Of a stretch of 64,000 nt of DNA, positions 2 through 15,899 are shown piece after piece. A model generated the notes under the pieces. The model was given only the letters and a program-made list of their open reading frames with translations. It searched no databases and was not told the DNA's origin. The stretch's first letter is position 1. Each line of letters opens with the position of its first letter. This DNA comes from Escherichia virus TH06, in sequence record MT446386.1. One strand, 5' to 3'. Both the position numbers and the translations under genes were made by a program.

Positions 2-175
2 AAGCTGACATTTGAATTCCATAACGTAACCAAGCATCATAGCTTACGAGTTCGTGCTGGTATGCGTGTTGGTCAGATGGTTATGTTTGAGCACTCTCAT
101 GCAGGGGAGCACTCCTATGCAGTGAAGGGTCGTTATAATAACTCTGAAGGTGTAGTTGCATCTAAAGGTGTGTAA
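2..175 (+). CDS. 3' end of a small protein gene (5'-partial); C-terminus (NNSEGVVASKGV) resembles the following tandem family, likely a 4th paralog
   Basis: Frame 2 is open from window edge to TAA at 173-175, immediately before ATG 176; shares NSEG motif with ORF 176-373. Confidence 0.3.
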   Translation, partial: KLTFEFHNVTKHHSLRVRAGMRVGQMVMFEHSHAGEHSYAVKGRYNNSEGVVASKGV

Positions 176-863: not shown

Positions 864-1193
864 ATGTTAGATTTGAGTAAAGTGGCCCCGCCCACTGAAG
901 AGATTACAAAATCCAAGGTGATGCAACAGTTTTATCATCGTGATATGCTTGGTCGCTTTATCAAGAATCGTGATGTTGTTGCTTGGTCTATTGGTAATCA
1001 GGGATATCTGTTGAAGGTTCTTCAGGTTACAGGCTCAACTGCTAAGCGAGTTAAGGTGTATGACCCTGAAATGGGGCGTTCTAAGTCAGTAGACCCACAG
1101 AACTGCATCGTAATTACCCAGCAGGTAATGGATAATATTGCACGTAACGTTGCTAACTCAGTTGAACTTGATGGAGAAAACCCAAATGCATAA
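864..1193 (+). CDS. hypothetical protein (109 aa)
   Basis: Track ORF with upstream GGAGAG. Confidence 0.5.
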   Translation: MLDLSKVAPPTEEITKSKVMQQFYHRDMLGRFIKNRDVVAWSIGNQGYLLKVLQVTGSTAKRVKVYDPEMGRSKSVDPQNCIVITQQVMDNIARNVANSVELDGENPNA

Positions 1194-1749
1194 GAATGTT
1201 TTTGATTTACCTGAGATTGGTCGTGACAGTTATAGTATGTTAGACCGGTCTGAGCTTTCAATCTCTCGCCTTGAAACAATGCAAGGCATGATTAGTGCAA
1301 ACAGCCTAGAACACATCCTGAGCTGCTTACAAGCTAACATGGAACTATTGCATATCAAAGCTAAAAACTACCACTGGAACGTCTCTGGTGCAGGATTTCA
1401 GGGTGTTCATGGTATGTTTGATGAGCTGGAAGATTACGCACGACAGGTAGGAGATCGTATTGCTGAACGTATGCGTTACCACTGCGTTAAAGTGGATGCT
1501 ACAGCAGCTAATTATCTCTCCCATGCTTGGTTCTCAGAGGGTAATGCTGATCTAGACATGGACGGTATGCTCTCTGATATGTGCATGACCTTGATGTGTA
1601 TTATTGAGAAGATGGATGAGTTTGATGGTGATTTAGCCACCTACCCTGTCGATCAGAGTATGCTTCAAGAAATTAATGAAGGTCTTGGCAAGTATTGCTA
1701 CTTCGTCAAGAGCAACATGTCCCATTCAAGTGGTGATGTGTCTTACTAA
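1186..1749 (+). CDS. Dps/ferritin-like protein
   Basis: Motifs HWNVSGAGFQGVHGMFDELEDYARQVGDRIAERM resemble the Dps ferroxidase region; start moved to ATG 1186 (GGAG 9 nt upstream), overlapping upstream stop. Confidence 0.6.
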   Translation: MHKNVFDLPEIGRDSYSMLDRSELSISRLETMQGMISANSLEHILSCLQANMELLHIKAKNYHWNVSGAGFQGVHGMFDELEDYARQVGDRIAERMRYHCVKVDATAANYLSHAWFSEGNADLDMDGMLSDMCMTLMCIIEKMDEFDGDLATYPVDQSMLQEINEGLGKYCYFVKSNMSHSSGDVSY

Positions 1750-1997: not shown

Positions 1998-2273
1998 ATG
2001 TCTAAAGTAATTAAGTTTTATAGTGATCAGTGTGCTCCATGTAAAGCAATGGCTCCTACCTTTGAGAAGGTTGTTAAGGAGTTTGATGTAGAAGTGGAAG
2101 AGATTAACATCCTTGAAGGTGATGGTCGTGAACAAGCTGTTAAGTATGGTGTACGAAGCATCCCTGCTTTTGTTGTGCCTGACCGTAACAGTGGTGCACA
2201 CTACAGCCTCTCCGGTATGCAGACTGAAGCAAACCTGAAAGCATTTTTGGATACAGCTTTAGGTGTTAACTGA
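1998..2273 (+). CDS. thioredoxin-fold protein (CxxC)
   Basis: CAPC active-site-like motif and IPAFVV cis-Pro-like motif; 91 aa. Confidence 0.55.
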   Translation: MSKVIKFYSDQCAPCKAMAPTFEKVVKEFDVEVEEINILEGDGREQAVKYGVRSIPAFVVPDRNSGAHYSLSGMQTEANLKAFLDTALGVN

Positions 2274-2742
2274 TAAGATAAAAGAAGACCTAGCATATGA
2301 CCCTGATACTGGAATCTTTAGATGGAAGAATACTAAAGGTCGGAGAGTATCAGGGAACATTGCTGGGTGTGTCTCAACATTAGGTTACAGGTACATCTAT
2401 TGTGAAGGGAAATCTTACAGAGCATGTCGATTAGCTTGGTTTTTCTCTTATGGAAAGATGCCTGAGTTTGAGATTGATCACATCAACCAGATTAAACTGG
2501 ATGACTCTCTTAAAAACCTAAGAGATGTTGACCCATCTACAAACTGTCATAACAGAAAACAATACAATAGAGCCGGAAAAGCTGGAAAACTCCCAATGGG
2601 TGTTTACATTAGAGAGACGGCTAGTGGTACAAAATTCAGAGCTATCATCGGAGTTAACGGAAAGACTAAGCATTTAGGAACTTTCCACACTCCAGAGGAA
2701 GCAGAGATTGCTTATAACAAGGAGAAGTTGAAGTATGAATGA
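2263..2742 (+). CDS. HNH homing endonuclease with AP2-like DNA-binding domain
   Basis: EIDHINQIK...NLRDV...NCHNR HNH motif and C-terminal GVY..ETASGTKFRA...G.FHTPEEA; GTG start per track. Confidence 0.65.
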   Translation: MLTDKIKEDLAYDPDTGIFRWKNTKGRRVSGNIAGCVSTLGYRYIYCEGKSYRACRLAWFFSYGKMPEFEIDHINQIKLDDSLKNLRDVDPSTNCHNRKQYNRAGKAGKLPMGVYIRETASGTKFRAIIGVNGKTKHLGTFHTPEEAEIAYNKEKLKYE

Positions 2743-3391
2743 ACAATTACAAGCAACATTGATTGAAGCTATGGGCAGTGATAAAACCGTTGTTAATGCT
2801 GCAAGAGTTTCTTTTGGTGTTGTACGAGAGGGTGATTTGAATGATCGTGATACTCGGCTGATTAACTTCTTGGCTAGAGAGAAACACTGCACTCCGTTCC
2901 GTCATCCACAAGTGTCCTTTCGTTGTAAGGCTCCAATTGCAATCGCTCGTCAACTACAGAAGCATCAGGTTGGATTCTCGTGGAACGAAATGTCCCGGCG
3001 GTATAAAGATGGAGCAGTTGAAGTCTTCATCCCTAAAGAGATTTTTGCGAGACCTTCGGACCTCCATGCAGGTTCAGGGATTCAACTCATCGACGGAGAG
3101 CGAGCTGAAGCATTAATGCTGATTAACGATGCATATGAAGCTTCTCTAGCAGCATATGACAAGTTGATTGAATTTATTGCACCAGAGCAAGCTCGATTTG
3201 TTCTTCCTCAGGGGATGATCACTGAGTGGGTGTGGACTGGTTCTTTGTATGGCTGGTTTGAGTTGTGCCGTCAGCGACTCTCCTCTCACGCTCAATATGA
3301 AGTTCGAGTGTTTGCTAAATCTCTAGATGAAGAGATGGCTAAACTCTACCCAATCTCGTGGGCAGCTCTGAAGAAAACTTTGGAGAGTTAA
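2735..3391 (+). CDS. thyX: flavin-dependent thymidylate synthase (ThyX)-like protein, divergent motif
   Basis: HCTPFRH and KHQVGFSWNEMSRRY resemble the ThyX HxSPFEH / RHR...S.RY signature, with substitutions. Confidence 0.55.
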   Translation: MNEQLQATLIEAMGSDKTVVNAARVSFGVVREGDLNDRDTRLINFLAREKHCTPFRHPQVSFRCKAPIAIARQLQKHQVGFSWNEMSRRYKDGAVEVFIPKEIFARPSDLHAGSGIQLIDGERAEALMLINDAYEASLAAYDKLIEFIAPEQARFVLPQGMITEWVWTGSLYGWFELCRQRLSSHAQYEVRVFAKSLDEEMAKLYPISWAALKKTLES

Positions 3392-3392
3392 A

Positions 3393-3641
3393 ATGGCTAG
3401 TAAAAGTATTTGGATTCTGAGTCGTGTTGAAGAGACAGACAGAGGGGAGTACACAGAAGTGCTTTGCTCTTTCATTACATACCCCACAAAACAACAGCTT
3501 GAAGATGCTGGAGTAGAAATAAATCTTTCTCAATCTCTTTTTGATAAAAAGGTTTCCAAGTCAACAGCCCCATTCTTTGGTTATTACTACACACTTGATA
3601 GTTTGGAGCTACTGATGAATGATTCTTGTTTGGAGAATTAA
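3393..3641 (+). CDS. hypothetical protein (82 aa)
   Basis: Track ORF. Confidence 0.45.
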   Translation: MASKSIWILSRVEETDRGEYTEVLCSFITYPTKQQLEDAGVEINLSQSLFDKKVSKSTAPFFGYYYTLDSLELLMNDSCLEN

Positions 3642-3775
3642 TGTTGGAAGAAGATGACGATGTGTTCTGCACCAAGTGTGGGATGACAGTTGATGATGCA
3701 TATGACCCAAGTGTAGAAATTTGTCCATGTTGCGGAGTATGTGAATATTGCTGTTCCCACAACTCAGAGGATTAG
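3641..3775 (+). CDS. small Cys-rich protein (44 aa), zinc-ribbon-like
   Basis: ATG overlaps upstream stop (TAATG); CTKCG...CPCCGVCEYCC. Confidence 0.35.
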   Translation: MLEEDDDVFCTKCGMTVDDAYDPSVEICPCCGVCEYCCSHNSED

Positions 3776-3787
3776 CAGGAATTCCTT

Positions 3788-4021
3788 ATGAAGATAAAAC
3801 ATATTACAGATATTCAGGAGGCATTTAGAATGCTTCCTCGAAGAGAGAAAGATAAGATTAAGAAGCTTATTCAAGTCTATGGTCATACATCTGAAGGTGA
3901 TGTAGATTATATGCCTGCCACTTTTAGAGAATGCGGAATTGCTCGTAATTTCACATTTGATCGTAAAGTGTTTCAGCAATTCGTTGACCACTGGAGAAAA
4001 GATGGAAAAGAAAGTCTGTAG
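3788..4021 (+). CDS. hypothetical protein (77 aa)
   Basis: Track ORF. Confidence 0.4.
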   Translation: MKIKHITDIQEAFRMLPRREKDKIKKLIQVYGHTSEGDVDYMPATFRECGIARNFTFDRKVFQQFVDHWRKDGKESL

Positions 4022-4187
4022 CTTCTGTAAGAAAGAGAAGACTGTCGCCAACTTTAAACCTAATCCTGTAACCGGTTTGACTCATGTCATGTGTCACTCT
4101 TGCAGGATATACCTTGAAACAAAGCACACCATTAACAGGTTGCACTATTATCACCCAACAACATTCAAATTTAAGGTTGTGAAATGA
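4002..4187 (+). CDS. small zinc-ribbon-like protein (61 aa)
   Basis: Internal ATG 4002 after GGAG; CSFC...CHSC; track ORF 3939 N-terminus overlaps previous gene. Confidence 0.4.
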   Translation: MEKKVCSFCKKEKTVANFKPNPVTGLTHVMCHSCRIYLETKHTINRLHYYHPTTFKFKVVK

Positions 4188-4513
4188 TTGACAGTAATAC
4201 ATTTAGGACTTCAAATGGAAGTGAGATAAGTCCCGCTGAAGTAATAAATCGGCACAGAAGGCAATTGATCATCCATTCCTATTTGTATTACTGGTTGGAT
4301 GACCCTATCTGGTCTGATGATAAATGGCAACAAGTTGCTAATGATCTAGTGGAGCTGCAAGCTCTGTATCCAGAGCCTACCGGAGTCTTTGACGCTGAGT
4401 TCAAAGATTGGGATGGTTCTACAGGAATGCATCTCCCACACAACGAGGCTGTTGCTTGTATGGCGACAGCTGTTTACAGGATTCATAAAGACATGAACCA
4501 TGAAGTGCTCTAG
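4184..4513 (+). CDS. hypothetical protein (109 aa)
   Basis: Track ORF, start overlaps upstream stop. Confidence 0.5.
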   Translation: MIDSNTFRTSNGSEISPAEVINRHRRQLIIHSYLYYWLDDPIWSDDKWQQVANDLVELQALYPEPTGVFDAEFKDWDGSTGMHLPHNEAVACMATAVYRIHKDMNHEVL

Positions 4514-4685
4514 ATGTGAAGGAACAAACCTTCATTTAAGTAACAAGGTTATCAGAGAGCTTGCCAAAGGCTCTCCAACCAAAGGGAAGAACAAACGATT
4601 TACTAACGTCAGGGTTTATACAGCAATCTGCAAAGACTGCTTAACTACTGAGTGTCATTACGAAGAAATTGGAGAGCGTAAATGA
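4500..4685 (+). CDS. small zinc-ribbon-like protein (61 aa)
   Basis: CSRC...CKDC pairs. Confidence 0.45.
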   Translation: MKCSRCEGTNLHLSNKVIRELAKGSPTKGKNKRFTNVRVYTAICKDCLTTECHYEEIGERK

Positions 4686-5419
4686 GTCGTCGTCAATCAC
4701 GGAAAGAATCACGGAAAGACCTTCGTCGGGAAGCACTTGTTACTCGTAAAGGTAAGAGAGAGTATGAAGAGGTGGTTTTAGCAAAGCCTGTAGTTCCTCA
4801 GAACCAGTTTCAGTCTGAGCTACTTAATGCTATCAAGACTAAACAAGTTGTGTTCACAGACGCTCCTGCGGGCTGTGGTAAGACCTTTGTAATCACTTCC
4901 ACGGTTATTGATGCACTGAAGAGTGGTAAGATTCAGAAGATCATCTTGAGTCGACCTTCAGTTGGCATGGGTAACTCTCTTGGGTTACTTCCGGGAGGGA
5001 TGCGTGAGAAGTTTGAACCATACCTTATGCCTATTATTGATGTTATTACTCAGCGATATGGTAAGGGGTTCTATGAATGCCAAATCGGAAATGGTAATAT
5101 TGAATTTGTACCTCTGGAATATCTCCGTGGTCGTTCCTTCAATGATGCCATTGTTATCGTGGATGAGTTCCAGAACACCACTAAAGAGGAAGCCTTCTCC
5201 ATCATGACTCGATTGGGAGAAACCTCTCAGCTGTTCTGCATGGGTGATACAAACCAGCATGATATGCGTGGTCGTGAGAGTGGCCTCACTTGGGCTACTA
5301 ACTTTATTGATGAACACGATCTGTATGAGTTTGCTGAGATTGTAGACGGTGAATCGGATGATATTGTTCGTTCTGGTTTCTGTAAGGCGATTGTTAAAGC
5401 AATGGAAAAGAAAGCTTAA
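4682..5419 (+). CDS. phoH: PhoH-like ATPase
   Basis: Walker A DAPAGCGKTF, LSRPSVGMGNSLGLLPG, IVDEFQN, MGDTNQHD match the PhoH family. Confidence 0.8.
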   Translation: MSRRQSRKESRKDLRREALVTRKGKREYEEVVLAKPVVPQNQFQSELLNAIKTKQVVFTDAPAGCGKTFVITSTVIDALKSGKIQKIILSRPSVGMGNSLGLLPGGMREKFEPYLMPIIDVITQRYGKGFYECQIGNGNIEFVPLEYLRGRSFNDAIVIVDEFQNTTKEEAFSIMTRLGETSQLFCMGDTNQHDMRGRESGLTWATNFIDEHDLYEFAEIVDGESDDIVRSGFCKAIVKAMEKKA

Positions 5420-5430
5420 ACAGTAACTTA

Positions 5431-5439
5431 TAATGTATA
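5431..5439 (+). promoter_or_regulatory. TAATGTATA element, candidate promoter for the phage-encoded sigma factor
   Basis: Exact 9-mer 37 nt upstream of ATG 5476; same 9-mer recurs upstream of three other genes. Confidence 0.4.
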
Positions 5440-5475
5440 CTCCTTAGTGTACACTGATATATTAAGGAGTTTTAA

Positions 5476-5793
5476 ATGGCAGATCATGTAGGAAAGAGAG
5501 ATTATGCACAAGAAAGACGTACCGCAATTGCCCGTGGTGAGACAGGCGTTGGGAGCAAGAGCGGAGATGCTCAGCGCCACCGTGCACGTCGCATCGTTGA
5601 AAAGCGCGATGGAAAAGCTGCTGTCAGAGGTAAAGACGTTGGACACAAACGAGCTGTCAAGTCTGGAGGCTCTAATGCGTCAAGCAACTTACGTGTTGAA
5701 TCAGTCAGCTCAAACCGTTCAAACGGCGGCAAAAGTGGTGATCGAGCTGGAAAAGCAGCTGGAGCACGCAAAGGAGCTTTAAGCTCATCGTAA
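5476..5793 (+). CDS. basic G/K/R/S-rich protein (105 aa); alternative overlapping frame 5504-5782 also open
   Basis: Strong RBS TAAGGAG 8 nt upstream; own upstream element and downstream terminator; locally GC-rich. Confidence 0.4.
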   Translation: MADHVGKRDYAQERRTAIARGETGVGSKSGDAQRHRARRIVEKRDGKAAVRGKDVGHKRAVKSGGSNASSNLRVESVSSNRSNGGKSGDRAGKAAGARKGALSSS

Positions 5794-5797
5794 TATG

Positions 5798-5826
5798 AGG
5801 CCACCCAAATGGGTGGCCTTTTCTTT
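5798..5826 (+). terminator. rho-independent terminator
   Basis: GGCCACCC-AAAT-GGGTGGCC stem-loop followed by TTTTCTTTT. Confidence 0.65.
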
Positions 5827-5861
5827 TATATAAACCAAATTAAACTTCTTAGGTAATAAAT

Positions 5862-6116
5862 ATGTCTATTGTAAAAATCGTAAATATCATTGATGTAACT
5901 CGTACCGGTAAAACTATTAGTTGGAAATTCACCAATAAGCATAGAGGTTCAGAGAACATCATTCGTTCTATGATTCAACAAAACCCAAATACAGCTCGCA
6001 CTAACGTACTCCTTCGCGGAGCTGATGGAAAATTTATCTCTTATAAGAATAAGAACGTAGAAAAATCTTTCCGTGTTGCAGTAGAAAATCTCATCCCATT
6101 CCCTAAAGGAGTTTAA
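5862..6116 (+). CDS. small protein, paralog family B (84 aa)
   Basis: Shares ...LLRGADGKFISYKNKN...PFPKG with the next ORF. Confidence 0.5.
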   Translation: MSIVKIVNIIDVTRTGKTISWKFTNKHRGSENIIRSMIQQNPNTARTNVLLRGADGKFISYKNKNVEKSFRVAVENLIPFPKGV

Positions 6117-6995: not shown

Positions 6996-8840
6996 GTGAG
7001 CAACCCGGACGCTCTTCCATTTTTGACAGAGATGACTGTCGCTGATATAATCTCTAAGCAAGCAAAGCACGGAGTGAGTTTCAACCGAAGAAATGCTCGG
7101 TGGTATGTTCACCTCCTTAAAGAGATTATTGTTAATATTGACAGAGAGCTGATTCCTCTCTTACCTAAGATGAGATTAGATGGCTCTACTTACATGAAGC
7201 CGTTTAAGAAGTCTGGAGCTTTACAGAAGTGGCCTCAAGCCTATTGTGATAGGGTTGGGCTGAAGAGAGAAGATATTGGTGGAGCTTTTACCTGTGTCGA
7301 ATACGTAGACTTTGACCCATCGAAAGATGCACGAGTTAAAGAAGCTCTTATGGATGAGGGCTTTCTTCCTCCAGAGTTTAACGTATCTAAGAAGCCTTGG
7401 AATACTTTCGAAATTAAGAAAGATATGAGAAAGTATGGAACATACCAAGCATGGTATACTGCTTGGATGCGAGGCAATGCTAAGCAGAAGCAGACAGCCG
7501 AGATGGTTGACGCTGATATTAAGAAGTTCTTAGAAAAGCATTTCAGGTTTAAGACTAAGAATTACATGAAGGCTTACGTATTTGGTTTGGGGTTGAACCC
7601 TAATCGCCGTAATCCTGTAACGTTTGATGAGATTAAGAAAGCACTAGCCACATCAAACAAGTGGCCTACAGCTCCTACAAACCTCGAGGAGACTCTTGAA
7701 GAAGGGTTAGGGGGTGAGCTAGGGAGTGTCGGAAGTTTGCTTAAGAGACGCGTTGTAGCGGCTCACAGGCTAGGTCTTATCAGTGGACTCATAGCAAAGG
7801 AACGCGAAGATGGTAAACTTTCGGCAGAAGCTAACAGCTGCGCTACGCCGACTTTTCGATTCAAACATCGTATCGTGGTTAATATTCCCTCCCGTGGTCT
7901 GTTTGGTCACGAGTGTCGCAGTTTGTTTGAGTCTGACTATAACTCAGACAGTGATCACTCTCGTCCTTTCGTTATTACTAACGTTGTTCCTGATGGTTGT
8001 TATATACGAAAAGGTACTAACGTAATTTACGAGAAAGGTAAGCCGGGGAAGAAAGACAAACCTGTAGGCGCTTACAAATATTATATACCCGCTGGTAAAG
8101 AAGTATTCTTAGGGTATGATGGTTCTGGACTTGAACTTCGTATGCTCGCTCACTACCTCATTAAAGAGTGTAGGGATATGCTTGCTGAGGCAATTGAAGA
8201 GAACAACCCAGCTAAGAAAGCTCTGGCAGAACGTGGTTTAGCTTCTGCTATTATATATCGTGATATTCTCCTTGAAGGTGATATCCACTCCCACAACCAG
8301 AAACTTGCTGGTCTTCCTACTCGTGACAACGCTAAAACGTTTATCTATGCATTCAACTACGGTGCTGGCGATGCTAAGCTTGGTTCAATTGTAGGTGGTG
8401 GGGCTGATGAAGGTTCAGTGATGCGAGCACGTTTCTTAGCAGAGAACCCATGTATTGCAATCCTCATTGATCGTATGACAGAGAAAGCTGCTCAAGGATA
8501 CTTGATTGGAGTTGATGGTCGTAAGATTACAATGAGACGGGATGCCACTGGTAAGGTTATGGTTCATAAAGCCCTTAACACACTCCTGCAATGTGCTGGT
8601 GCTGTTGTTATGAAATATGCTATGATGTTCCTTAACAAGTGGATTGAGAAAGATAAGGTTCGTTGTGCTAAGGTAATTGATATGCACGATGAAGGTCAAT
8701 TCTCAGTAAACCGTAATGATGTACAGAAACTCAAAGAACACACTGAGCTTTGTGTTAAGAAAGCTGGCGAGTATCTGAACATGGAATGTCCTCTGGCATC
8801 TGATTGTCAGATTGGACTTAACTGGATGCATACACACTAA
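6996..8840 (+). CDS. family A DNA polymerase (polymerase domain)
   Basis: Motif A YDGSGLELRMLAH, motif B RDNAKTFIYAFNYGAG, motif C VIDMHDEGQ; GTG start after AGGAG; no obvious 3'-5' exonuclease motifs. Confidence 0.85.
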   Translation: MSNPDALPFLTEMTVADIISKQAKHGVSFNRRNARWYVHLLKEIIVNIDRELIPLLPKMRLDGSTYMKPFKKSGALQKWPQAYCDRVGLKREDIGGAFTCVEYVDFDPSKDARVKEALMDEGFLPPEFNVSKKPWNTFEIKKDMRKYGTYQAWYTAWMRGNAKQKQTAEMVDADIKKFLEKHFRFKTKNYMKAYVFGLGLNPNRRNPVTFDEIKKALATSNKWPTAPTNLEETLEEGLGGELGSVGSLLKRRVVAAHRLGLISGLIAKEREDGKLSAEANSCATPTFRFKHRIVVNIPSRGLFGHECRSLFESDYNSDSDHSRPFVITNVVPDGCYIRKGTNVIYEKGKPGKKDKPVGAYKYYIPAGKEVFLGYDGSGLELRMLAHYLIKECRDMLAEAIEENNPAKKALAERGLASAIIYRDILLEGDIHSHNQKLAGLPTRDNAKTFIYAFNYGAGDAKLGSIVGGGADEGSVMRARFLAENPCIAILIDRMTEKAAQGYLIGVDGRKITMRRDATGKVMVHKALNTLLQCAGAVVMKYAMMFLNKWIEKDKVRCAKVIDMHDEGQFSVNRNDVQKLKEHTELCVKKAGEYLNMECPLASDCQIGLNWMHTH

Positions 8841-13512: not shown

Positions 13513-13513
<1 letters not shown>
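13253..13513 (+). CDS. putative lipoprotein in +1 frame overlapping the 3' part of the previous gene, o-spanin (Rz1)-like
   Basis: MRKLNQFFIMSALVMSMSAC lipobox-like signal, Pro-containing mature part with Cys; overlapped arrangement. Confidence 0.3.
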
Positions 13514-15005
<1,492 letters not shown>

Positions 15006-15009
<4 letters not shown>

Positions 15010-15899
15010 ATGAAGAGGTAAAAGCTTTAAAGAAAGCTCTTGCAATTAAAATCAAACATTTAAATTTCGTCAGAGATGAGTTGGAGGAGCTATCCAACTT
15101 ATCAGGATATGAGTTACAGAATGAGCTTGTAGAGTTTCAAATCAATATTGATGGCGGTAAATACGTAGAAACAACTAGAGCGATTTTACCTAAAGTTACT
15201 GGTAACAAAACTTCTCCAATAGACTACTCACATGACCACACGGAGCAATTAGAAATGGAATCTCAAGGCAATCCAGCACTGACCAATATGGTGGGAGATT
15301 CCCATTATAAGCCTTTAGTAGTAATTCTTAATGGGCCTCCGGGTTGTGGTAAAGATACGATAGCCAATGCTTGGGTTAATGCCCATTCATACCATCACAA
15401 TTATTCAACCAAATCCTTCAAGGAGCCAATGTACAAGGTAGCTGCTGCTGCACTAGGCATACCTCTAGAAAACTTTCTAGCACGCTATGAAGACCGTGAA
15501 TGGAAAGAAAAACCTAGACCAGAATGGGGAGGGAAGTCTGTAAGAGATTTGATGATTTCTACAAGTGAAGACTTCTTAAAACCTATGTTTGGCAATAATC
15601 ATATGGGGACTCTTGCTGTAAAGAGCATCAAACAAGAAGGGCTAGGTCAGGATGATATTGTCGTGTTTACTGACGGAGGTTTTGATGCAGAGGTACGAGA
15701 ACTAGAAAAGAATTTCCATGTCCAAGTTGTCCAAGTTCTTAGAGATGGTTGCTCTTTTGAGGGAGATTCTCGCTCATATATTGAAGGTGAGCAGAGAAAA
15801 ACATATCTACTGTATAATGACTCAACTGTTGAATCAGCAGTGTTAGATCTAGATTGGATTATTGATCAAGCTCGGGATGATATTTATGGAAGAAGTTAA
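15006..15899 (+). CDS. P-loop kinase, deoxynucleoside monophosphate kinase-like
   Basis: Walker A NGPPGCGKDT, later RDLM and FTDGG segments reminiscent of T4 gp1-type dNMP kinases; ATG 15006 overlaps upstream stop. Confidence 0.5.

What the first reader, a model, noticed from the sequence alone, without database searches (positions are those of the whole stretch)
2735..3391. ThyX-like protein with substitutions in the expected signature
The ThyX-like segments are recognisable, but where I expect RHR the sequence has K-H-Q, and the HxSPFEH-like segment reads HCTPFRH. If my recollection of the signature is right, substrate or cofactor binding residues are altered, which could mean a diverged activity (for example a different pyrimidine modification) rather than canonical thymidylate synthesis.
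Basis: inference. Interest (0 to 1): 0.4.

Follow-up and report, generated by a model that had tools for sequence, protein, structure and literature searches.

The report
Ordinary phage ThyX, variant motif class
This gene is a normal-looking flavin-dependent thymidylate synthase (ThyX) of an E. coli Kuravirus phage. Its unusual K-H-Q and PFRH signature is shared by a large ThyX subfamily that includes housekeeping bacterial genes, so it is not a sign of new chemistry.

Summary
The 218-aa ORF at 2735-3391 (+) is a full-length ThyX, and it reads K76-H77-Q78 where T. maritima ThyX has R78-H79-R80, and HCTPFRH where T. maritima has HETPFEH.

The inference of a diverged activity is not supported.
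- All positions equivalent to dUMP-contacting and catalytic residues are kept (Q75, E86, S88, R90, Y91, E144, R147, R174, H53).
- The changes fall on flavin-phosphate ligands (R80, R165, E58). They co-vary as a block that defines a large "K-H-x / SRRY" ThyX class, with at least 600 matches in viral contigs.
- The same KHQ + PFRH signature occurs in chromosomal thyX genes of Holophagaceae and other phyla, flanked by conserved housekeeping genes. Among close Holophagaceae homologues the third motif residue switches between R (73), Q (46) and K (1).
- The phage gene is under strong purifying selection (dN/dS 0.06-0.16). It sits with dCTP deaminase, thioredoxin and a dNMP kinase in a genome of about 41% GC.

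It most likely makes dTMP. One caveat remains. No K-class ThyX turned up as assayed or solved in the searches I ran, and Kuraviruses are unexplainedly resistant to restriction, so a modified-base role is unlikely but not excluded.

The parts
2735..3391 (+). thyX coding sequence (218 aa plus stop), flavin-dependent thymidylate synthase
   Evidence: ORF. Pfam PF02511 E 1.1e-43. TIGR02170 127.9 bits against cutoff 87.9. PDB 6j61 1.6e-30 and T. maritima ThyX 1.1e-23. AF2 model pLDDT 90.8. Foldseek TM about 0.8 to TmThyX. 100% aa identity to Escherichia phage PGN6866.
2720..2724 (+). AGGAG Shine-Dalgarno-like sequence 10 nt upstream of the ATG
   Evidence: Read directly from the sequence.
2885..2905 (+). 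H51-C-T-P-F-R-H57, aligned to Tm H53-ETPFE-H59. H53 and T55 are kept, E58 is replaced by R.
   Evidence: R at this position in 119 of 121 aligned sequences (120 close homologues plus the query).
2960..2968 (+). K76-H77-Q78, in place of the RHR ThyX motif (Tm R78-H79-R80)
   Evidence: K and Q are invariant in all 121 aligned sequences.
2993..3004 (+). S87-R88-R89-Y90, aligned to Tm S88-G89-R90-Y91. The serine, arginine and lid tyrosine of the active site are kept, and G89 is replaced by R.
   Evidence: Roles of the residues from PMC6514825.
3194..3196 (+). R154, aligned to Tm R147 (dUMP phosphate ligand, role from memory)
   Evidence: invariant.
3242..3289 (+). S170...Y172...E176...R179-Q180-R181...H185. 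R181 aligns to Tm R174 and H185 to Tm H178, both kept. Tm N163, R165, N169, N172 and L173 are replaced by S, Y, E, R and Q.
2..172 (+). C-terminal 57 codons of a dCTP deaminase, cut by the window edge. It is the likely upstream supplier of deoxyuridine nucleotides.
   Evidence: tblastn with the Bas90 dCTP deaminase, 100% identity over residues 121-177. Annotation in relatives.
1998..2273 (+). thioredoxin, conserved neighbour of thyX in Kuravirus and Moazamivirus
   Evidence: Pfam PF00085 E 2.2e-13. Synteny.
15000..15899 (+). deoxynucleoside monophosphate kinase homologue, likely phosphorylating dTMP to dTDP
   Evidence: PHROG 139 E 6.3e-55. 96% identity to the Bas90 dNMP kinase. No Pfam hit.

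Best explanation
The ORF encodes a functional flavin-dependent thymidylate synthase (ThyX). I infer that it acts as a homotetramer. The bound flavin is reduced by NAD(P)H, takes the methylene group from CH2-H4folate on N5, and passes it to C5 of dUMP to give dTMP and H4folate. In the phage it belongs to a dTTP-supply module: dCTP deaminase gives dUTP/dUMP, ThyX gives dTMP, and the phage dNMP kinase gives dTDP. This module serves replication of a genome of about 41% GC in a host of about 51% GC (the host figure is from general knowledge). The K-H-Q and PFRH signature marks a distinct ThyX class. In this class the ligands for the flavin phosphates and ribityl have been rearranged: R80, R165 and E58 are lost, R78 becomes K, and R58, R89 and R172 are gained. 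The uracil, dUMP and folate side of the pocket is unchanged. The family assignment, residue conservation, class structure, cellular occurrence and selection are shown here. Catalysis, oligomeric state, flavin identity and the proposed re-wiring of flavin binding are inferred.
For: Family and fold. Invariant positions in 121 sequences are Tm-equivalent H53, R74, Q75, N85, E86, S88, R90, Y91, E144, R147 and R174. H79 and H178 are invariant in 120 of 121, and T55 is T or S in all. Their roles in dUMP binding and catalysis are described in PMC6514825 and PMC3498832.

Class-level trait: of the 150 best 50%-identity cluster representatives only 1 reads RHR, and most read K/R-H-x. There are at least 600 matches in viral contigs. 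Covariation: RHR goes with E58, R/H165 and G/Q89, while K-type goes with non-E58, non-R165, S163 and R89.

Cellular housekeeping use: 72 loci in cellular genomes and MAGs. 21 Holophagaceae/Acidobacteria loci carry transaldolase near thyX, most of them also with carboxyltransferase, DUF5916 and DUF192, and the flanking proteins have diverged to 37-100% identity. Other lineages place thyX next to dihydroorotate dehydrogenase, seryl-tRNA synthetase and similar genes. These bacterial genes carry KHQ together with HTSPFRH. Close homologues switch between KHR (73), KHQ (46) and KHK (1), and Geothrix edaphica has KHR at the same locus.

Selection: dN/dS is 0.06 against Bas90 and 0.16 against MLP3.

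Pathway context: dCTP deaminase, thioredoxin and dNMP kinase in the window. The same module is present in Salmonella phage SE131. GC is 0.39-0.46.
Against: I found no experimentally characterised or structurally solved K-class ThyX. The best PDB matches shown residue by residue (T. maritima, T. thermophilus) carry RHR, and the motifs of the other solved ThyX chains were not read. Literature searches found no functional test of a phage ThyX of this kind. Mutagenesis in M. tuberculosis ThyX found the ThyX motif necessary for activity (PMC2386288), so tolerance of K/Q here rests on comparative evidence only. I could not check whether the bacterial genomes with K-class thyX lack thyA. Gordonclarkvirinae are remarkably resistant to restriction-modification systems with no known modification pathway (PMC11990801). 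The window does not avoid EcoRI, EcoRV or EcoKI sites, so some unidentified protection exists.
Confidence: 0.85

Rival explanations
1. A neofunctionalised ThyX-like enzyme makes a modified pyrimidine nucleotide. One possibility is release of 5-hydroxymethyl-dUMP by hydration of the exocyclic-methylene intermediate. The product would then enter phage DNA and explain the restriction resistance of Gordonclarkvirinae.
For: Positions that bind cofactor and substrate in canonical ThyX are altered. Gordonclarkvirinae resist RM systems with no known modification pathway, and the BASEL authors suspect a covalent modification (PMC11990801). EcoRI, EcoRV, EcoKI and EcoP1 sites are present at roughly expected numbers in the window. 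From memory, 5-hmdUMP has been trapped as a derivative of a ThyX reaction intermediate, so the chemistry is conceivable.
Against: The same signature occurs in housekeeping chromosomal thyX of several bacterial phyla, with no partner modification genes nearby. R and Q alternate among close homologues. All dUMP and folate-side residues, including R174 and H53, are unchanged. The gene is accompanied by a dNMP kinase and dCTP deaminase, as in an ordinary dTTP pathway, and no hmdU-processing genes (kinase, transferases) are annotated near it in relatives. phiEco32 termini were mapped with restriction profiling, so at least some enzymes cut this DNA (PMC9965538).
Confidence: 0.05
2. It is still a thymidylate synthase, but with a materially different flavin site. 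It may bind FMN or hold FAD weakly, or use a different reductant. K-class ThyX would then be a mechanistically distinct subclass and might be insensitive to inhibitors designed against RHR-type enzymes.
For: The substitutions concentrate on residues that bind the AMP phosphate, FMN phosphate and ribityl of FAD. These are R80 and R165 (Mtb R97 and R190 in PMC6514825; the R190 = Tm R165 equivalence is inferred from spacing relative to R199 = R174). E58, N163 and N169 are FAD contacts from my memory of the T. maritima structure paper. The changes co-vary as a block. New arginines appear at positions 58, 89 and 172.
Against: H79 and T55, which also bind the flavin phosphate and ribityl, are kept, and K replaces R78 conservatively. 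The predicted fold superposes on FAD-bound TmThyX with TM about 0.8. No ligand modelling was possible. Position 58 is R, A, G, C or S across the class, so no single compensating residue is required.
Confidence: 0.25
3. It is a UMP (ribonucleotide) C5-methylase like PolB of polyoxin biosynthesis, or it acts on another nucleotide such as dCMP.
For: PolB (PDB 4p5a; identity of that entry is from memory) is a ThyX homologue and is detected at E 2e-17.
Against: The match to bona fide ThyX is much stronger (1.6e-30 and 1.1e-23). The protein scores above the curated thyX equivalog cutoff. R174, which reads the uracil, is invariant. The genomic context is DNA replication and dNTP supply.
Confidence: 0.02
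4. It is a decayed, non-functional ThyX remnant whose motif has eroded.
For: Two of the three residues of the classical ThyX motif are lost.
Against: dN/dS is 0.06-0.16. The ORF is full length and intact, and the model is confident. K76 and Q78 are themselves invariant across 121 sequences. The gene is conserved across Kuravirus and Moazamivirus.
Confidence: 0.01

Closest known systems
Thermotoga maritima ThyX (TM0449; PDB 1o26 and others) and Thermus thermophilus ThyX (6j61), the characterised canonical FDTS
   Same: Same Pfam and TIGRFAM family, with full-length alignment at 31-34% identity and predicted fold TM about 0.8. Identical residues at Tm H53, T55, H59, R74, Q75, H79, N85, E86, S88, R90, Y91, E144, R147, R174 and H178.
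   Different: R78->K, R80->Q, E58->R, G89->R, N163->S, R165->Y, N169->E, N172->R, L173->Q, and a one-residue insertion after the motif.
Chromosomal ThyX of Holophagaceae / Geothrix (for example G. edaphica P0342) and of Myxococcota, Spirochaetia, Chloroflexota, Poribacteria and Nitrospinota MAGs
   Same: Same K-H-Q/R motif class with the 8-residue spacer. Holophagaceae and Myxococcota also share PFRH (R58). Identity to the query is 37-47%.
   Different: These are cellular genes in conserved housekeeping neighbourhoods. Holophagaceae keep G89 (SGRY) and L173. They are no more characterised biochemically than the phage protein.
ThyX of other Gordonclarkvirinae (SU10, Bas90 SkaterBoy, MLP3) and of Salmonella phage SE131 (Moazamivirus)
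   Same: Orthologues at 62-100% aa identity with the same signature and the same neighbourhood of dCTP deaminase, thioredoxin, PhoH and Dps-like genes. They are annotated as thymidylate synthase ThyX.
   Different: In this window an HNH endonuclease gene is inserted just upstream. The identical ORF in record MT127620 (PGN6866) carries no annotation.
PBCV-1 ThyX (A674R; PDB 2cfa), the characterised viral ThyX, together with cyanophage and actinophage ThyX
   Same: Virus-encoded ThyX of the same family.
   Different: Much more distant (E 3.9e-08). The cyanophage and actinophage representatives sampled are RHR/E58-type. The motif of PBCV-1 itself was not read here.
PolB, the ThyX-like UMP C5-methylase of polyoxin biosynthesis (PDB 4p5a; identity of the entry from memory)
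   Same: ThyX fold and flavin/folate-dependent C5 methylation of a uracil nucleotide.
   Different: Weaker similarity (2e-17), a secondary-metabolism context, and a ribonucleotide substrate. The query shows no such context.

Membership tests
ThyX / FDTS (Pfam PF02511, NCBIfam TIGR02170) | Full-length match to the family profiles above the curated thresholds | tested here: met
   PF02511 149.7 bits against 24.8, profile positions 1-190 of 191. TIGR02170 equivalog 127.9 bits against 87.9.
ThyX / FDTS (Pfam PF02511, NCBIfam TIGR02170) | ThyX fold | tested here: met
   AF2 model with mean pLDDT 90.8 and pTM 0.85. All of the top 50 Foldseek PDB hits are ThyX, with TM 0.71-0.81 over about 209 columns.
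ThyX / FDTS (Pfam PF02511, NCBIfam TIGR02170) | Literal ThyX motif R-H-R-x7-S | tested here: not met
   The sequence reads K-H-Q-x8-S. The literal motif is also not kept in syntenic bacterial thyX genes (KHR, KHQ, KHK), nor in 149 of the 150 nearest cluster representatives by a pattern scan, about a third of which the pattern did not parse. It is therefore a feature of one class, not of the whole profile-defined family.
ThyX / FDTS (Pfam PF02511, NCBIfam TIGR02170) | dUMP-binding and catalytic residues (Tm Q75, E86, S88, R90, Y91, R147, R174, and a basic residue at 78) | tested here: met
   All are invariant in 121 sequences, and position 78 is K. Roles from PMC6514825 and PMC3498832.
ThyX / FDTS (Pfam PF02511, NCBIfam TIGR02170) | Folate-side histidine (Tm H53) and neighbouring S30 and N85 | tested here: met
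   H and N are invariant, and S30 is S or T. The role of H53 in folate stacking is from memory.
ThyX / FDTS (Pfam PF02511, NCBIfam TIGR02170) | Canonical ligands of the FAD phosphates and ribityl (Tm R78, H79, R80, T55, R165) | tested here: inconclusive
   H79 and T55 are kept, R78 becomes K, R80 becomes Q and R165 becomes Y. Whether the new R58, R89 or R172 take over cannot be decided without coordinates or a ligand-bound structure.
ThyX / FDTS (Pfam PF02511, NCBIfam TIGR02170) | Enzymatic dTMP synthesis from dUMP, CH2-H4folate and NAD(P)H, bound flavin, homotetramer, and thyA complementation | not testable with these tools
   Requires experiment. The protocol is available in PMC9931769.
PolB-type UMP C5-methylase | Closer similarity to PolB than to dUMP-specific ThyX, and a nucleoside-antibiotic gene cluster context | tested here: not met
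   4p5a scores E 2e-17 against 1.6e-30 for T. thermophilus ThyX. The context is phage replication and dNTP genes.
Phage pyrimidine hypermodification pathways (5-hmdU / 5-hmdC type) | A ThyA-family hydroxymethylase plus downstream kinase or transferase genes | tested here: not met
   The protein belongs to the ThyX family, not ThyA. No such partner genes are annotated around thyX in Bas90, MLP3 or SE131. The rest of the genome was not searched exhaustively.

The most novel reading that the evidence does not exclude
The K-H-Q / PFRH ThyX of Gordonclarkvirinae may not be, or not only be, a dTMP synthase. It could produce a non-canonical pyrimidine nucleotide, for example 5-hydroxymethyl-dUMP by water capture of the exocyclic-methylene intermediate. 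That product would end up in virion DNA and account for the unexplained restriction resistance of these phages. It would be the first ThyX-family enzyme in a DNA-modification pathway.
Probability: 0.04. Interest if true: 0.8.

Novelty: already known. Interest (0 to 1): 0.2.

Why it matters
For this window it matters little. The gene is the thymidylate synthase that GenBank records of related Kuraviruses already annotate, and it most likely just boosts dTTP supply for an AT-rich phage genome.

Two side points have some value. First, the textbook ThyX motif RHRx7S does not hold for a large class of ThyX. That class is abundant in viruses and serves as the chromosomal thyX in several bacterial phyla. 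In it, the flavin-phosphate ligands are replaced as a co-varying block. I found no structure or assay for this class, which matters for ThyX inhibitor design and for motif-based annotation. Second, a conserved, selected ThyX together with a dNMP kinase argues against the published speculation that Gordonclarkvirinae carry dU in place of dT. The restriction resistance of these phages therefore remains unexplained.

Tried and rejected
- A first regular expression for the motif found nothing because the spacer is 8 residues, not 7. It was replaced by alignment-based columns.
- I asked whether E58->R compensates for R80->Q as a charge swap. This is rejected as a strict rule, because KHQ sequences carry R, A, G, C or S at position 58. 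Only a class-level block covariation holds.
- I asked whether avoidance of restriction sites explains the RM resistance and so removes the need for a modification hypothesis. This is rejected for EcoRI (9 sites), EcoRV (27), EcoKI (9) and EcoP1 (108), although CCWGG, PstI and SacI sites are strongly depleted.
- A viral-contig scan with an RHR-type alignment, meant to enlarge the canonical sample, failed because no stretch was conserved enough. The RHR sample is therefore small: 8 phage proteins, 2 PDB proteins and 1 cluster representative.
- Two key papers are not held: Liu and Yang 2004 on "distinctive ThyX motifs" (PMC515151) and Ulmer et al. 2008 on the extended ThyX motif (PMC2258874). Their content is not used beyond the titles.
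- Literature searches for a functional test of a phage or phiEco32 ThyX, or for restriction digests of phiEco32-like DNA, found nothing usable.
- The 5-hydroxycytosine pathway paper (PMC13326640) involves a flavin-binding ThyA homologue, not ThyX, so it is not relevant.
Full report
**What is there**

The window comes from an Escherichia coli podophage of the genus Kuravirus (Gordonclarkvirinae). Bases 2000-6000 match 98 phage records, nearly all Escherichia or Shigella phages. The best is PGN6866 at 96.8% nucleotide identity. The ORF at 2735-3391 (+) encodes 218 aa and is 100% identical at the protein level to an unannotated ORF of PGN6866. It is 95-96% identical to ORFs annotated "thymidylate synthase ThyX" in other Kuraviruses.

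It matches Pfam Thy1 end to end (E 1.1e-43). It exceeds the curated threshold of the NCBIfam thyX equivalog (127.9 against 87.9 bits). It matches solved ThyX structures from T. thermophilus (1.6e-30) and T. maritima (1.1e-23). An AlphaFold2 model is confident (mean pLDDT 90.8) and superposes on T. maritima ThyX with TM about 0.8 over about 209 residues. All of the top 50 PDB hits are ThyX.

**Check of the observation**

Using T. maritima numbering, derived from the HMMER alignment:
- R78-H79-R80 is K76-H77-Q78 here (nt 2960-2968).
- H53-ETPFE-H59 is H51-CTPFR-H57 (nt 2885-2905).

Many positions are unchanged and invariant across the 120 closest homologues: H53, R74, Q75, N85, E86, S88, R90, Y91, E144, R147 and R174. 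H79 and H178 are invariant in 120 of 121, and T55 is T or S in all. According to PMC6514825 and PMC3498832, the serine, the arginine after it, the lid tyrosine, the late arginine (Mtb R199 = Tm R174) and the first arginine of RHR hold dUMP. The RHR residues, a serine/threonine (Tm T55) and a second arginine (Mtb R190, which by spacing is Tm R165) hold the FAD phosphates and ribityl. The changes therefore sit on the flavin-phosphate side of the pocket. The nucleotide side is intact.

**Is the signature peculiar to this phage?**

No.
- In the 120 closest database proteins (52-90% identity), K and Q are invariant and R58 is present in 119 of 121.
- In an exhaustive HMMER search of 1.84 billion cluster representatives, 6857 clusters match. 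Among the 150 best (38-62% identity to the query) a pattern scan found only one that reads RHR. The rest read K/R-H-x, with Q, T, K, V, M and other residues in third place and an 8-residue spacer.
- Twelve phage ThyX proteins sampled down the identity ranking split cleanly. RHR sequences (Streptomyces, Gordonia, Mycobacterium, Microbacterium, Acidovorax and Pseudomonas phages, and a cyanophage) have E58, R or H at 165, and G or Q at 89. K-type sequences (this phage, and Rheinheimera, Geobacillus, Bacillus and Streptomyces LilMartin phages) have R or G at 58, no R at 165, S at 163 and R at 89 (the larger set agrees).

The ThyX family thus contains at least two motif classes that differ by a co-varying block of flavin-side residues.

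**Is the K class used for ordinary thymidylate synthesis?**

This was the key test available to me. A scan of one genome per prokaryotic species with KHQ[VI]GxxW[NS]E found 72 loci.

About 21 are from Holophagaceae and other Acidobacteria, several on megabase contigs or closed chromosomes. All 21 carry transaldolase near thyX. Most also carry a carboxyltransferase on the same side and DUF5916 and DUF192 on the other. The flanking proteins have diverged to 37-100% identity, which indicates long vertical inheritance of a chromosomal gene.

Other lineages place K-class thyX next to dihydroorotate dehydrogenase (Spirochaetia), a 2-oxoacid dehydrogenase E2 subunit (Chloroflexota), an aminotransferase (Poribacteria), an HlyD-family secretion protein (Nitrospinota) or seryl-tRNA synthetase (Myxococcota). 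No phage genes were seen.

Among the 120 closest homologues of one Holophagaceae ThyX (at least 70% identity), 73 read KHR, 46 KHQ and 1 KHK, all with R58. The cultured species Geothrix edaphica has KHR at the same syntenic locus. The third motif position therefore alternates between R and Q among close homologues of a housekeeping gene. That is hard to reconcile with a change of chemistry.

**Selection and context in the phage**

Pairwise Nei-Gojobori dN/dS is 0.06 against Bas90 and 0.16 against MLP3.

The neighbourhood is a replication and nucleotide-supply module:
- the 3' end of a dCTP deaminase at 2-172
- a Dps/ferritin-like protein at 1138-1749
- thioredoxin at 1998-2273
- an HNH endonuclease at 2263-2742
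- thyX
- PhoH at 4682-5419
- a family A DNA polymerase at 6996-8840
- a dNMP kinase homologue at 15000-15899

The same module of dCTP deaminase, PhoH, thioredoxin, ThyX and Dps is present in the distantly related Salmonella phage SE131. The window is 39-46% GC. That is lower than E. coli (about 51%, general knowledge), so extra dTTP supply is a plausible selective reason for the gene.

**Mechanism proposed**

What follows is established ThyX chemistry applied by homology, not tested here. The enzyme is a homotetramer with active sites at subunit interfaces. NAD(P)H reduces the flavin. dUMP stacks on the isoalloxazine, held by S87, R89, Y90, R154, R181, Q73, E85 and K76. CH2-H4folate donates its methylene to flavin N5, which relays it to C5 of dUMP. 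Reduction gives dTMP and H4folate, so no dihydrofolate reductase is needed.

The class-specific block (K76, Q78, R56, R88, S170, Y172, R179, Q180) probably re-wires how the flavin phosphates and adenosine are held. This last step is inference. I had no coordinates and no ligand modelling.

**Rivals**

A modified-pyrimidine synthase is the interesting alternative. The BASEL authors report that Gordonclarkvirinae are remarkably resistant to restriction-modification systems without any known modification pathway, and they speculate about dU-DNA (PMC11990801). I also found that EcoRI, EcoRV, EcoKI and EcoP1 sites are not avoided in the window. However, the same ThyX signature in housekeeping bacterial genes, the unchanged uracil and folate side of the pocket, and the accompanying dNMP kinase make this unlikely (about 5%). 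A conserved, selected ThyX actually argues against dU-DNA.

A PolB-like UMP methylase (about 2%) and a decayed gene (about 1%) are contradicted. A thymidylate synthase with a materially different flavin-binding mode is compatible with the main explanation and is perhaps 25% likely.

**Comparison with the known, and novelty**

The protein is a member of the ThyX family by profile, fold and active-site residues. It fails only the literal RHRx7S motif, and that motif is not universal in the family.

The gene itself is already annotated in public Kuravirus genomes, so I rate it already known. What may be under-appreciated is that a large K-H-x / SRRY class of ThyX exists for which I found no structure or assay. 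The two best PDB matches shown residue by residue, T. maritima and T. thermophilus, carry RHR. I did not read the motifs of the other solved ThyX chains. A 2004 paper titled "...distinctive ThyX motifs" may already describe such variants, but it is not held.

**Limits**

- No enzymology was done.
- The roles of E58, N163 and N169 in FAD binding are from my memory of the T. maritima structure paper.
- The equivalence Mtb R190 = Tm R165 is inferred from spacing.
- Absence of thyA in the bacteria with K-class thyX was not tested.
- The RHR comparison set is small.

Noticed in passing
window 2263-2742 (+): An HNH endonuclease gene (Pfam HNH_3, E 6.7e-07) lies between thioredoxin and thyX and overlaps the thyX start by 8 nt. 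Bas90 has no gene there, with thioredoxin and thyX only 15 nt apart. This looks like a free-standing homing endonuclease insertion next to a thymidylate synthase gene.
   Followed up: partly
whole window (64 kb): CCWGG (Dcm/EcoRII site) occurs 6 times against about 72 expected from base composition. CTGCAG, GAGCTC, CCATGG and several other GC-rich palindromes are absent. EcoRI (9), EcoRV (27), EcoKI (9) and EcoP1 (108) sites are not avoided. The strong RM resistance reported for Gordonclarkvirinae (PMC11990801) is therefore not explained by site avoidance for the enzymes tested there.
   Followed up: partly
window 4184-4513 (+): A 109-aa protein consists only of the NAD+-binding Ia domain of NAD-dependent DNA ligase (Pfam Nlig-Ia, E 6.8e-35). 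Relatives annotate it as 'DNA ligase', but it lacks the adenylation, OB and other ligase domains. Its function is unclear.
   Followed up: no
window 3788-4021 (+): A 77-aa ORF matches PHROG 4452, labelled 'anti-restriction nuclease' (E 1.5e-31), two genes downstream of thyX. It is a candidate contributor to the RM resistance of these phages and was not examined further.
   Followed up: no
window 13513-13953 (+) and 1138-1749 (+): A macro-domain protein (Pfam Macro, E 1.3e-10; annotated 'phosphatase' in relatives) and a Dps/ferritin-like protein (Pfam Ferritin, E 2.9e-07; PHROG 3636) are encoded in the replication module. The Dps-like gene is also next to thyX in Salmonella phage SE131.
   Followed up: no
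L001 (Escherichia phage Bas90) 6548-13754, outside the window: Relatives carry a cluster upstream of the primase/helicase: COOH-NH2 ligase, amidoligase, a GlmS-like glutamine amidotransferase, a RimK-like ATP-grasp protein and a gamma-glutamyl cyclotransferase. SE131 also has the cyclotransferase next to its helicase. The product of this cluster is unknown. tblastn found no copy in this window.
   Followed up: partly
P0122, P0133, P0194, P0197, P0250, P0263: Several K-class ThyX cluster representatives are 350-640 aa long, and most match the query in two or three separate stretches. This suggests inteins or other insertions inside thyX, or fusions.
   Followed up: no
MT127620.1 (Escherichia phage PGN6866) 52275-52928: The ORF that is 100% identical to this ThyX has no annotated feature in the public record, which is an annotation gap.
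   Followed up: no
L088 (Geothrix edaphica BSDC01000002.1) 8001-8681, and P0271-P0390: Within Holophagaceae the chromosomal thyX alternates between KHR...SEFNE and KHQ...CSWNE versions of the motif segment at the same locus (73, 46 and 1 for KHR, KHQ and KHK). It is a natural experiment on the tolerance of the third motif residue.
   Followed up: yes
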